DNA of 35,320 bases from a virus (taxonomy: Duplodnaviria; Heunggongvirae; Uroviricota; Caudoviricetes), in IMG/VR virus record IMGVR_UViG_2606217174_000009; one strand, given 5' to 3'. The notes below the pieces were generated by a model. It was not told the DNA's origin. It did not search any database and saw nothing but the letters and a program-made list of their open reading frames with translations. Below, piece by piece: positions 24,630 to 25,647 of the stretch. Positions within the stretch are counted from its first letter, which is position 1. Each line of letters opens with the position of its first letter. The position numbers and the translations under genes were made by a program.

Positions 24630-24666
24630 AACCCCGTTTGTTGGCAGCAAGCGGGGTTTTGTTTTT
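24630..24666 (+). terminator. Hairpin terminator between the endolysin and spanin genes
   Basis: AACCCCG ... CGGGGTT stem followed by TTTTGTTTTT, preceded by an A-run (possibly bidirectional). Confidence 0.5.
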
Positions 24667-24731
24667 ATGGCAGTAAGCTATGGGAGGCTGCCTTGATTGA
24701 TTTTAGCAAACTGATTAGGGAGTTGCGACTC

Positions 24732-24827
24732 ATGATTAGTCAATTACCAAACTGGAAATTTTTGCTGGTCTGGAGCATCCCTTTTTTATGGGTAGTATCC
24801 CAGTTAATTGTGGCAATTAAGGGGTAG
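24732..24827 (+). CDS. Small hydrophobic peptide (31 aa)
   Basis: MISQLPNWKFLLVWSIPFLWVVSQLIVAIKG; AGGGAG SD; manual translation. Confidence 0.3.
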   Translation: MISQLPNWKFLLVWSIPFLWVVSQLIVAIKG

Positions 24828-24829
24828 CT

Positions 24830-24961
24830 ATGTCAGACAAACTCATAACGCCGGCAAAGGTCCTGTGTGTGATTGTCGGTATTTCATTTTCACTAATGCT
24901 GGTTGCTCTTTTTCTGTCCCTCGCCTGGGTGATGTTGTCTTCGTTGGGGCTGCTGGGGTGA
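24830..24961 (+). CDS. Small hydrophobic peptide (43 aa)
   Basis: MSDKLITPAKVLCVIVGISFSLMLVALFLSLAWVMLSSLGLLG; AAGGGG SD. Confidence 0.35.
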   Translation: MSDKLITPAKVLCVIVGISFSLMLVALFLSLAWVMLSSLGLLG

Positions 24962-25080
24962 CAGTGACTGATGACATCAGCAGAGCGCTGGCTTTTGCTA
25001 TTAAGTGGGTGGCTGTTGGTATTGCTGTGTCTCCGATGCTGTATGGGCTGGCAAAACTGGTCATTGCGCTGAAATCGTGA
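24958..25080 (+). CDS. Small hydrophobic peptide (40 aa), paralogue of the next peptide
   Basis: GTG start overlapping the upstream stop (GTGA); ...ISRALAFAIKWVAVGIAV... Confidence 0.3.
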   Translation: MTVTDDISRALAFAIKWVAVGIAVSPMLYGLAKLVIALKS

Positions 25081-25091
25081 ACTTTAAAAAG

Positions 25092-25178
25092 ATGAGTGCT
25101 GAACTTATTCGGGCAATGGCATTTGCCATTCGTATTGTGGCCATTGCTGTTCTGGTCTGGGCAATCCGTTGGTGGTGA
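25092..25178 (+). CDS. Small hydrophobic peptide (28 aa)
   Basis: [28 protein letters not shown]; stop lies 1 nt before the Rz start. Confidence 0.3.
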
Positions 25179-25179
25179 T

Positions 25180-25647
25180 ATGAACCGTGTTCTGTGTGTG
25201 GTGATTATTGTCCTGCTGGTAGCCTGTGGTGTGCTTAGTCTGGGGCTGAATCATTACCGCGATAACGCCATCACCTACAAAGCGCAGCGCGATAAAAAAG
25301 TCAGTGAGCTGAAACTGGCGAACGCGACAATTACTGATATGCAGATACGCCAGCGTGATGTCGCTGAACTTGATGCCAGATACTCGAGGGAATTAGCCGA
25401 TGCGAGAGCTGAAAATGAAACTCTGCGTGCTGATGTTGCCGCTGGTCGTAAGCGCCTGCGGATCAACGCCACCTGCTCCGGTACCGTGCGTGAAGCCACC
25501 GGCACCTCCGGCGTGGATAATGCAACCGGCCCCCGACTGGCAGACACCGCTGAACGGGATTATTTCATCCTCAGAGAACGGTTGATGACAATGCAGAAGC
25601 AGCTGGAAGGGGCACAGGACTATATCCGCACTCAGTGCCTGAACTAA
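25180..25647 (+). CDS. Rz: Rz i-spanin
   Basis: 155 aa; N-terminal TM segment followed by [16 protein letters not shown] and [23 protein letters not shown], matching lambda Rz. Confidence 0.9.
25400..25585 (+). CDS. Rz1: Rz1 o-spanin lipoprotein, embedded in Rz in the +1 frame
   Basis: Lipobox LVVSAC and proline-rich [27 protein letters not shown], matching lambda Rz1. Confidence 0.85.

What the first reader, a model, noticed from the sequence alone, without database searches (positions are those of the whole stretch)
24630..25180. Four tandem tiny hydrophobic ORFs between endolysin and Rz, two of them paralogous
Seen: ORFs of 31, 43, 40 and 28 aa (24732-25178), each mostly one predicted TM helix and tightly packed (one GTGA overlap; the last ends 1 nt before Rz). 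The third and fourth share the core RA-x-AFAI+-x-VA-x-GIAV/AIAV. A terminator-like hairpin separates them from the endolysin. In lambda and phage 21 the endolysin gene is directly followed by Rz. Inference: novel lysis-timing or membrane peptides, or degenerate remnants.
Basis: inference. Interest (0 to 1): 0.5.

Follow-up and report, generated by a model that had tools for sequence, protein, structure and literature searches.

The report
Mobile small membrane-peptide genes before Rz
Between the cell-wall enzyme gene and the spanin gene of this E. coli prophage lie four real, conserved but uncharacterised genes for tiny membrane peptides, which form a shuffled, hairpin-led cargo cassette found in many gut-bacterial phages including Shiga-toxin phages.

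Summary
Four same-strand ORFs lie at 24732-24827, 24830-24961, 24958-25080 and 25092-25178. They follow a strong hairpin terminator (24628-24666) and end 1 nt before Rz.

They are not chance ORFs. Each hits a PHROG family of unknown function. RefSeq annotates them as hypothetical proteins, and the whole 642-nt gap is in 587 of 5426 complete E. coli genomes. In every family the proposed frame has the lowest pN/pS of all six frames.

ORF3 and ORF4 are true paralogues of a roughly 50-60-aa family with a conserved KYKR..LRL.MKNGLE.DAP head. Both window copies lack that head.

The peptides behave as modules. Related phages carry one, two or four of them in different orders. The cassette starts at the hairpin and also sits behind unrelated endolysins (GH108, GH19). 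One family also occurs outside lysis cassettes.

A 49-aa ORF2 homologue lies unannotated between ant and Rz in phage 933W. It was scored as translated (XECs191) in published Sakai ribosome profiling.

Function is untested. My best reading is late-expressed inner-membrane peptides that tune the membrane step of lysis and pass ribosomes to Rz. Moron or remnant readings remain open. Interest is moderate.

The parts
24004..24537 (+). Endolysin R (Phage_lysozyme, 177 aa; Ala/Gly-rich N-terminal segment of the SAR type). Context gene at the 5' boundary of the gap.
   Evidence: Pfam PF00959, E = 3e-22. PGAP annotates it as 'lysozyme'. The SAR nature is inferred from the N-terminal sequence and from PMC8136144.
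24538..24627 (+). 3' untranslated leader that travels with R21-type lysozyme genes. It has no conserved ORF.
   Evidence: Conserved in all E. coli gap types and at 76% identity in Salmonella phage SPN3UB. Absent from the Citrobacter and Cronobacter cassettes, where homology starts at the hairpin. No Rfam family matches; the best hit is ohsC at 21.6 bits against a gathering score of 50, E = 1.3.
24628..24666 (.). Intrinsic-terminator hairpin: A-tract, 15-bp stem, then a T-run, so it looks bidirectional. It is the 5' boundary of the mobile peptide cassette.
   Evidence: Terminator scan. Folds at -24 kcal/mol and is kept in 21 sequence variants, including compensatory stem changes. It is the first shared sequence across unrelated lysis cassettes.
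24732..24827 (+). ORF1, 31 aa, single hydrophobic helix (phrog_6632). It is related to the single peptide 'MAEKLSTWKFILIWLV...GQIRWW' of the minimal 297/298-nt gaps.
   Evidence: PHROG E = 1e-12. SD -8.4 kcal/mol. Invariant WKF.L.W core. pN/pS 0.24 (ORF1 type, 4 alleles) and 0.15 (minimal type), in each case the lowest of six frames. PGAP's 70-aa extension across the hairpin is not conserved, because a stop interrupts it in L033. Has an in-frame stop in Cronobacter.
24830..24961 (+). ORF2, 43 aa, N-terminal MSDKLIT..K followed by about 33 hydrophobic residues (phrog_4906). This is the best-supported gene of the four.
   Evidence: PHROG E = 1e-19. SD -8.2 kcal/mol. 222 cluster representatives in E. 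coli, Shigella, Citrobacter and Cronobacter, with length kept at 43-49 aa and W33, L36, L41 and G43 invariant. pN/pS 0.46, the lowest of six frames. A 933W/Sakai homologue was scored as translated, XECs191.
24958..25080 (+). ORF3, 40 aa from GTG 24958 (start uncertain). It is the helix part of the 60-aa 'MEKYKRILLRLTMKNGLELKAP...' family and lacks that N-terminal motif.
   Evidence: PHROG 3246/1115/4493, E = 4e-27 to 7e-17. Family alignments. Core variable sites by codon position 16/6/47, P = 4e-9. pN/pS 0.17. The AF2 model of the 60-aa form has helices 3-15 and 22-59, pLDDT 75.
25092..25178 (+). ORF4, 28 aa, a short-form paralogue of ORF3 ending in IRWW. Its stop lies 1 nt before the Rz ATG.
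   Evidence: phrog_4493 E = 4e-6. Paralogy shown. Hybrids of ORF3 and ORF4 halves exist: P0113, P0117, P0241. pN/pS 0.32. No SD. The IRWW end is shared with the unrelated minimal peptide, so it probably belongs to the Rz junction and its ribosome-binding site.
25180..25647 (+). Rz i-spanin, with Rz1 embedded at 25400-25585. Context gene at the 3' boundary, positioned to receive ribosomes from the last peptide ORF.
   Evidence: Pfam PF03245, E = 7.5e-50. The embedded ORF with lipobox-like LVVSAC is listed. The last upstream ORF ends within 11 nt of, or overlaps, the Rz start in every architecture.

Best explanation
What is shown:
- The four ORFs are genuine small single-helix membrane-protein genes from three phage families: ORF1, ORF2, and ORF3/ORF4.
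- They travel as interchangeable modules in a cassette whose 5' end is an intrinsic-terminator hairpin.
- The cassette occupies a cargo slot between the endolysin gene and the spanin gene. In other phages the same slot holds an antirepressor.

What is inferred:
- No promoter is evident after the hairpin. The peptides would therefore be made only when Q-antiterminated late RNA polymerase reads through it, together with S, R and Rz.
- The ORFs are chained by a 2-nt gap, a GTGA overlap, an 11-nt gap and a 1-nt gap. Ribosomes would be handed on to Rz. This replaces the ATGA coupling between R and Rz that the insertion destroyed.
- The peptides would insert in the inner membrane late in infection. 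There they most likely modulate the membrane step of lysis, such as membrane energisation or triggering time, in a way that does not depend on holin type. They would be accessory, not essential.

In this window ORF3 and ORF4 are N-terminally shortened versions of their family and may be only partly functional.
For: - Conserved families and annotation.
- Coding signal in the proposed frame. Beyond chance.
- Modular architectures (minimal peptide; N-motif-ORF4; N-motif-ORF3-ORF4; N-motif-ORF3-ORF2; ORF1-4; ant-ORF2).
- Cassette begins at the hairpin and sits behind pinholin/lysozyme, GH108 and GH19 lysis cassettes.
- Hairpin conserved with compensatory changes.
- Promoter-like sites are not above chance (3 found against 4.2 expected), and none lies between the hairpin and ORF1 on the + strand.
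- The last ORF always ends within 11 nt of, or overlaps, the Rz start, while direct R-Rz junctions overlap by ATGA.
- Strong SD sites for ORF1 and ORF2.
- Translation signal and a predicted inner-membrane helix for the Sakai homologue XECs191: PMC5597208.
- One or two terminators also precede the family's copies elsewhere (L496, L498), consistent with insulation from non-antiterminated transcription.
Against: - There are no functional data for any member.
- Within the 642-nt type there are only 6 variable sites in the ORFs, 4 non-synonymous and 2 synonymous. Constraint therefore cannot be shown for this exact cassette.
- ORF2's third-position excess is weak (33/23/42, P = 0.03).
- Pseudogenised copies exist: frameshifted ORF2 and an ORF1 with an in-frame stop.
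- ORF4 lacks an SD site.
- ORF3-family genes also sit after tail-fibre genes and after an esterase gene, which is not specific to lysis.
- R21-type lysozymes also occur directly abutting Rz, so the cassette is dispensable.
- The XECs191 signal is low (translatome RPKM 12.6, coverage 0.55). It came from uninduced cultures, so it does not show late expression.
Confidence: 0.4

Rival explanations
1. Moron-type cargo. The peptides would act in the lysogen, for example by blocking DNA entry of superinfecting phages at the inner membrane or by adjusting a host membrane protein. Their position in the lysis cassette would be incidental.
For: - The modules are mobile and occur at classical moron sites: after tail-fibre genes with terminators on both sides (L496), and after the esterase gene (L498).
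- The same R-Rz slot carries other cargo: ant, and a 231-aa protein.
- XECs191 shows RNA and ribosome signal in uninduced Sakai cultures.
Against: - No promoter is recognisable between the hairpin and the first ORF. Promoter-like sites are at chance level.
- The terminator lies upstream, not downstream, of the ORFs in the R-Rz slot.
- The low signal in Sakai could come from the spontaneously induced subpopulation.
- No PADLOC defence model matches.
Confidence: 0.25
2. Largely functionless ORFs. These would be recombination scars and remnants of once-longer genes. Their reading frames would persist only because an open frame ending at the Rz start keeps Rz translated. The peptide sequences themselves would not matter.
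For: - ORF3 and ORF4 lack the family's conserved N-terminal motif.
- ORF4 has no SD site.
- Frameshifted ORF2 variants still terminate at or over the Rz ATG.
- ORF1 has a stop in Cronobacter.
- The 4:2 non-synonymous to synonymous ratio within the 642-nt type is compatible with relaxed constraint.
- Hydrophobic ORFs arise easily in T-rich sequence.
Against: - Between-type comparisons show purifying selection in the proposed frame for every family, with pN/pS 0.15-0.46, the lowest of six frames.
- Third-position excess is strong.
- ORF2 keeps its length and invariant residues down to 58% identity in Cronobacter.
- The ORF3 family keeps a specific motif across Salmonella, Citrobacter and E. coli.
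- ORF1 and ORF2 keep strong SD sites.
Confidence: 0.2
3. A type I toxin-antitoxin-like module. One or more peptides would be membrane-depolarising toxins. They would be held in check by an antisense or adjacent small RNA that ends at the bidirectional hairpin.
For: - Size and composition resemble TisB-, ShoB- or ZorO-type toxins (my own knowledge, not tested).
- The hairpin has an A-tract and a T-tract, so it could terminate a minus-strand RNA.
- There is a weak minus-strand promoter-like site at 24836-24807.
- There is a weak ohsC-like Rfam hit at 24594-24665.
Against: - The Rfam hit is far below threshold (21.6 against 50 bits, E = 1.3).
- The promoter-like site scores 9/12, and the site count is below the shuffled expectation.
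- Four translationally chained ORFs inside a late operon is not a type I architecture.
- The modules reshuffle without any conserved antisense partner.
Confidence: 0.07
4. The selected product lies on the other strand or is RNA. For example, it could be the 73-aa minus-strand ORF at 24843-25064.
For: The co-phased antisense frame is open in all ORF2, ORF3 and ORF1 alleles and has the second-lowest pN/pS.
Against: - That pattern is the expected by-product of hydrophobic NTN codons.
- The sense frame is lower in every family.
- The antisense ORF has no SD site. Its ends change with each architecture, and in ORF3-first cassettes it runs through the hairpin.
Confidence: 0.03

Closest known systems
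PHROG families phrog_6632, phrog_4906 and phrog_3246/1115/4493, and the RefSeq hypothetical proteins WP_001280935, WP_042004856, WP_032140280 and WP_001043230
   Same: The four ORFs are members by HMM match or are the same proteins.
   Different: These families carry no function. The databases do not record that three PHROGs are one superfamily, that the genes form a hairpin-led shuffled cassette, or that the window's ORF3 and ORF4 are truncated forms.
XECs191, a translated intergenic small ORF of E. coli O157:H7 Sakai (Huecker et al. 2017, PMC5597208). It is identical to an unannotated ORF between ant and Rz of phage 933W.
   Same: It is a homologue of ORF2: the 49-aa Stx-phage forms are 60-65% identical to ORF2. 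It lies immediately upstream of Rz. The authors predicted one inner-membrane helix.
   Different: It is 49 aa with an extra MMGWLM head. It follows an antirepressor gene rather than ORF1. Only a low ribosome-profiling signal was reported, and there is no functional study.
Accessory lysis regulators with one membrane helix: antiholins (S21-71, P1 LydB, T4 RI), the Mu releasin gp25 (PMC9239132) and BSPM4 ORF52 (PMC11657625)
   Same: They are small membrane proteins encoded in or near lysis cassettes that tune when the envelope is breached. This is the functional model I favour.
   Different: There is no sequence relationship (no Pfam or PDB hit). The window peptides are shorter and lack soluble domains. 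They are not tied to one holin or endolysin type.
Lambdoid morons (lambda bor and lom, HK97 gp15)
   Same: They are mobile accessory genes inserted in late operons, often encode membrane proteins, and are bounded by terminators.
   Different: Classical morons carry their own promoter and a downstream terminator and are expressed in lysogens. Here the terminator is upstream and no promoter is seen.
Type I toxins (TisB, ShoB/OhsC, Hok/Sok, ZorO)
   Same: They are hydrophobic helical peptides of 25-50 aa. A hok/sok locus is present elsewhere in this window.
   Different: There is no dedicated promoter, no antisense RNA partner and no Rfam match above threshold. The ORFs are chained inside a late operon.

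Membership tests
PHROG small-protein families (6632; 4906; 3246/1115/4493) | Significant match to the family profile HMM | tested here: met
   E = 1.3e-12 (ORF1, as the 70-aa form), 1e-19 (ORF2), 3.8e-27 (ORF3) and 3.8e-6 (ORF4).
ORF3/ORF4 superfamily (about 50-60 aa) | Conserved N-terminal motif KYKR..LRL.MKNGLE.[DK]AP preceding the helix | tested here: not met
   The window's ORF3 starts at VTVTDDISRA and ORF4 at MSAELIRA. The motif is present in full-length relatives. The window copies are helix-only derivatives.
ORF3/ORF4 superfamily (about 50-60 aa) | Helix core ..A.AFAI[KR].VA.. with either an ..LYGLAKLIIALKS or an ..IRWW end | tested here: met
   F33, A34, I35 and A39 are invariant across 21 members. 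Both end types and hybrids between them are seen.
Holins / pinholins | Match to a holin family, or at least one TMD plus a charged hydrophilic C-terminal tail | tested here: not met
   No Pfam holin hit at E <= 1 for any peptide, whereas the window's own holin hits PF04971 at 8e-33. The C-termini are KG, LLG, LKS and RWW, with no charged tail.
Antiholin / releasin-type lysis regulator | Demonstrated effect on holin triggering or endolysin release; physical interaction with a lysis protein | not testable with these tools
   Only position (between R and Rz) and late-operon orientation support this. The modules are not specific to one holin or endolysin type.
Spanins (i-, o- or u-spanin) | Periplasmic coiled-coil domain after an N-terminal TMD, or a lipobox signal | tested here: not met
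   The peptides are 28-43 aa with no periplasmic domain and no lipobox. Rz (PF03245) and the embedded Rz1 are separate genes downstream.
Type I toxin-antitoxin | Own promoter and an antisense or overlapping small-RNA antitoxin | tested here: inconclusive
   Promoter-like sites are not above chance, and there is one weak minus-strand site. The best Rfam hit is ohsC at 21.6 bits against a gathering score of 50. No expression data are available.
Moron | Autonomous unit of promoter, gene and terminator, expressed from the prophage | tested here: inconclusive
   No promoter was found, and the terminator is upstream. A relative in Salmonella (L496) is flanked by terminators on both sides. XECs191 gives a low signal in uninduced culture.

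The most novel reading that the evidence does not exclude
The cassette would be a portable lysis-clock modifier that does not depend on holin type. Small helix peptides made only under Q antitermination would perturb inner-membrane energisation and so shift the moment at which any holin or SAR endolysin fires. Phages would swap, duplicate and truncate these modules to retune lysis time. Homologues sit between R/ant and Rz of Stx phages such as 933W, and parts of the region occur in about 38% of complete E. coli genomes. The modules would then also influence the timing and amount of Shiga-toxin release.
Probability: 0.2. Interest if true: 0.7.

Novelty: new member of a known kind. Interest (0 to 1): 0.4.

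Why it matters
Lysis timing is a main fitness trait of phages. In Stx phages lysis is also the route by which toxin leaves the cell.

If these widespread, unstudied peptides tune that step, they would add a cheap, exchangeable layer of control to a system thought to be fully described as holin, endolysin and spanin.

Even if they do not, the result is useful for annotation:
- Three PHROG families are one superfamily.
- PGAP's 70-aa model across the terminator is probably wrong.
- The 933W reference lacks a conserved ORF that has published ribosome-profiling support.
- The R-Rz junction is a recurrent cargo slot in enterobacterial lambdoid phages.

Tried and rejected
- Pfam, NCBIfam, PADLOC and PDB sequence searches gave nothing meaningful for any peptide.
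- Rfam found no family in 24400-25300 at either the gathering or the permissive threshold. The ohsC hit is sub-threshold.
- I considered that the conserved leader might be one of the prophage Pas sRNAs. The preprint places those between the esterase and holin genes, not here.
- svsR (PMC12803456) gave no link to this locus.
- Two IMG/VR scans with peptide alignments returned only near-identical copies and added no diversity.
- The genome-contig scan with Rz returned a single locus.
- The antisense ORF 24843-25064 was considered and rejected as a by-product of hydrophobic codons.
- PGAP's long ORF1 (GTG 24615) was rejected. It spans the hairpin, has a poor SD site, and is interrupted in relatives.
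- Nucleotide diversity of the cassette against its flanks was uninformative in the small ungapped subset.
- Searching the literature by WP accession numbers found nothing.
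Full report
**Context.** The window is an E. coli lambdoid prophage. Around the finding lie:
- a P21-type class II holin (23096-23311, PF04971);
- a DUF1327/YdfR gene (23316-23660);
- a phage lysozyme R (24004-24537, PF00959);
- Rz (25180-25647, PF03245) with an embedded Rz1 frame (25400-25585).

The 642 nt between R and Rz (24538-25179) occur at 99.8% identity in many E. coli chromosomes. In total 587 of 5426 complete genomes have a copy covering at least 80% of it, and 2078 genomes match some part. Three phage records carry it whole at 98.4% identity, and a fourth covers 87% of it.

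**Observation.**
- A 15-bp hairpin with an upstream A-tract and a downstream T-run lies at 24628-24666.
- ORF1 is 24732-24827 (31 aa). ORF2 is 24830-24961 (43 aa). ORF3 is 24958-25080 (40 aa from a GTG that overlaps the ORF2 stop as GTGA). ORF4 is 25092-25178 (28 aa), ending one base before the Rz ATG.
- All four are dominated by one hydrophobic stretch.
- A chain of three or more such ORFs arose in 3 of 2000 dinucleotide-preserving shuffles, and a chain of four never arose.
- ORF1 and ORF2 have strong Shine-Dalgarno sites (-8.4 and -8.2 kcal/mol). ORF3 has a moderate one, and ORF4 has none.
- PGAP annotates three or four hypothetical proteins here. It uses a 70-aa model for ORF1 that starts at GTG 24615 and runs through the hairpin, and a 51-aa model for ORF3.
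- The long ORF1 model is unlikely. Its start has a poor ribosome-binding site, and relatives carry a stop between the extension and the ATG (L033).

**Are they genes?**
- Each ORF hits a PHROG family of unknown function: 6632, 4906, and 3246/1115/4493. ORF3 and ORF4 hit the same three families. No Pfam, NCBIfam, PADLOC or PDB relative exists.
- I fetched about 500 related loci and collected the distinct alleles of each peptide core.
- Variable sites are concentrated at third codon positions. For ORF3 the counts by codon position are 16/6/47 (P = 4e-9). For the minimal ORF1-like peptide they are 7/4/21 (P = 2e-4). For the N-terminal motif they are 15/11/25 (P = 0.015). For ORF2 they are 33/23/42 (P = 0.03). 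ORF4 and ORF1 are marginal, with few alleles.
- In every family the proposed frame has the lowest pN/pS of all six frames, 0.15 to 0.46. The co-phased antisense frame comes second, as expected for hydrophobic codons.
- The ORF2 family has 222 cluster representatives in E. coli, Shigella, Citrobacter and Cronobacter. Its length is held at 43-49 aa, and W33, L36, L41 and G43 are invariant.
- Limits: within the 642-nt type itself the ORFs show only six variable sites, four non-synonymous and two synonymous, so constraint on this exact cassette cannot be shown.
- Disrupted copies exist elsewhere. ORF2 is frameshifted in some ORF3-ORF2 cassettes, and ORF1 has an in-frame stop in Cronobacter.

**Paralogy and truncation.**
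- ORF3 and ORF4 align at 35% identity over 26 aa (E = 2e-4).
- Full-length relatives of both exist in other prophages: 60 aa MEKYKRILLRLTMKNGLELKAPVTDD... and 50 aa VRKYKRFFLRLSIMKGIEVETPASLD.... These share 48% over 44 aa (E = 2e-14).
- A profile search of 1.84 billion representatives found only 23 members. All are small proteins with the motif KYKR..LRL.MKNGLE.[DK]AP followed by a helix ending either ..ALKS/..VLK or ..RWW.
- Hybrids that combine the ORF3 head with the ORF4 tail, and the reverse, occur (P0117, P0113, P0241).
- AlphaFold2 on the 60-aa form gives a short helix (residues 3-15) and one long helix (22-59) at pLDDT 75.
- Both window copies lack the N-terminal motif. They are helix-only derivatives.
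- The shared IRWW end of ORF4 and of the unrelated minimal peptide probably belongs to the Rz junction and its ribosome-binding site.

**Modularity.**
- The R-Rz gap comes in discrete lengths that correspond to different peptide sets:
  - 297/298 nt with one ORF1-like peptide;
  - about 335 nt with full-length ORF4;
  - 438 nt with ORF3-ORF4;
  - 478-492 nt with ORF3-ORF2;
  - 642 nt with ORF1-4;
  - about 1000 nt with an antirepressor plus an ORF2 homologue (Stx phages);
  - 1413 nt with a 231-aa gene plus ORF1-4.
- All share the leader and hairpin. The hairpin is kept through 21 sequence variants, including compensatory stem changes.
- In Citrobacter and Cronobacter prophages, homology to the window starts exactly at the hairpin. 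The cassette there follows a GH108 endolysin with unrelated holins. It reads hairpin-ORF3-ORF2-lipoprotein in Citrobacter and hairpin-ORF1(stop)-ORF2-lipoprotein in Cronobacter.
- In Salmonella an ORF3 homologue precedes Rz behind a GH19 endolysin, or behind lysozyme plus a P22-type antirepressor.
- ORF3-family genes also lie after tail-fibre genes, flanked by terminators, and as a tandem pair after an esterase gene.
- Most other lambdoid relatives have R overlapping Rz by ATGA, as in K-12 Qin. The cassette is therefore dispensable cargo.

**Published evidence.**
- Phage 933W has an unannotated 49-aa ORF2 homologue in the 153-nt space between ant and Rz.
- The identical peptide is XECs191, one of 465 intergenic ORFs scored as translated in E. 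coli O157:H7 Sakai. In LB its transcriptome RPKM is 30.0, its translatome RPKM 12.6, its ribosome coverage value 0.43 and its coverage 0.55. The authors predicted one inner-membrane helix and an SD of -7.2 (PMC5597208).
- I found no functional study. A survey of Stx-phage lysis cassettes does not mention these ORFs (PMC8136144).
- Prophage Pas sRNAs map elsewhere.

**Mechanism.**
- Shown: these are conserved small membrane-peptide genes, in a hairpin-led mobile cassette, in late-operon orientation, with tight ORF chaining that ends at Rz.
- Inferred:
  - No promoter is detectable after the hairpin. Expression should therefore depend on Q-antiterminated polymerase, which makes these late proteins. 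The upstream terminators may serve to keep membrane-active peptides silent in lysogens.
  - The insertion breaks the usual R-Rz coupling. An ORF that ends at the Rz start would restore ribosome delivery, and even frameshifted ORF2 variants keep this feature.
  - The cassette works with at least three unrelated holin/endolysin sets. A generic action on the inner membrane is therefore more plausible than a specific antiholin contact.
- I put about 0.4 on this combined reading. Within it, I put about 0.85 on ORF2 and the ORF3 family being real genes, and about 0.3 on a lysis-timing role.
- Rivals are prophage-expressed moron function (0.25), functionless remnants kept open for coupling (0.2), a type I toxin-like module (0.07), and an opposite-strand or RNA product (0.03).

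**Verdict.** The ORFs are real and belong to known but uncharacterised families, so they are not new to databases. Their organisation as a shuffled, terminator-led cassette, and the unity of the ORF3/ORF4 families, appear undescribed. Interest is moderate (0.4). It would rise if a lysis-timing effect in Stx phages were shown.

Noticed in passing
L500 (phage 933W NC_000924) 3421-3570, i.e. record 27420-27569: A conserved 49-aa ORF2 homologue (MMGWLMISDKLITLVKSLCVLVGISFLVMLVAIFFSTAWRVLTLSGLVG) lies in the unannotated space between ant and Rz of the 933W reference genome. It is identical to the ribosome-profiling ORF XECs191 of Sakai.
   Followed up: yes
L318 1879-1986; L216 1355-1480; L007 about 1431-1505 (positions 32-106 of its R-Rz gap): A different family of tiny hydrophobic ORFs with the motif (A/F)NGND(A/G)W(P/G)WF sits between the endolysin and Rz in other lambdoid phages, overlapping the Rz start. 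This suggests the R-Rz junction repeatedly hosts small membrane peptides.
   Followed up: partly
L493 3140-3322; L491 3140-3322: In Citrobacter and Cronobacter prophages the ORF2 homologue is followed 4 nt later by a 60-aa predicted lipoprotein (MKRKHWTHR...LLVGC...) with no Pfam match, in the position where E. coli phages have Rz.
   Followed up: partly
L490-L492 241-1359: The Cronobacter prophages carry genes with Enterotoxin_a and LT-IIB domains (an LT-II-like AB5 toxin pair). They lie directly upstream of the lysis cassette, in the position stx occupies in Stx phages.
   Followed up: no
window 23626-23898 (- strand): A minus-strand ORF annotated by PGAP as a hypothetical protein (WP_000369851/WP_000369850) lies inside the lysis cassette, in the 343-nt space between ydfR and R. 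R itself has no recognisable Shine-Dalgarno site.
   Followed up: no
window 25971-26312: A 113-aa gene downstream of Rz has a lipobox-like N-terminus (LVMGC) and a TonB C-terminal domain (PF03544, E = 1e-14). PGAP calls it a TonB family protein. It lies where lambda and 933W carry bor, so it is a likely moron.
   Followed up: partly
window 22946-23095: This is the 150-nt intergenic space between the SASA esterase gene and the holin gene. A 2026 preprint places the prophage sRNAs PasA and PasC at this position. I did not check whether one is present in the window.
   Followed up: no
window 13433-13607, 4713-4764 (-), 20043-20240, 19689-19935: Rfam matches at the gathering threshold: the sok antitoxin RNA (a hok/sok locus), DicF, STnc100, and three tRNA genes upstream of the late region.
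   Followed up: no
L498 2306-2668: Two ORF3-family paralogues (64 aa and 55 aa) lie in tandem, preceded by two terminator hairpins, after an esterase gene in a Salmonella prophage remnant. Tandem duplication seems to be a habit of this family.
   Followed up: partly
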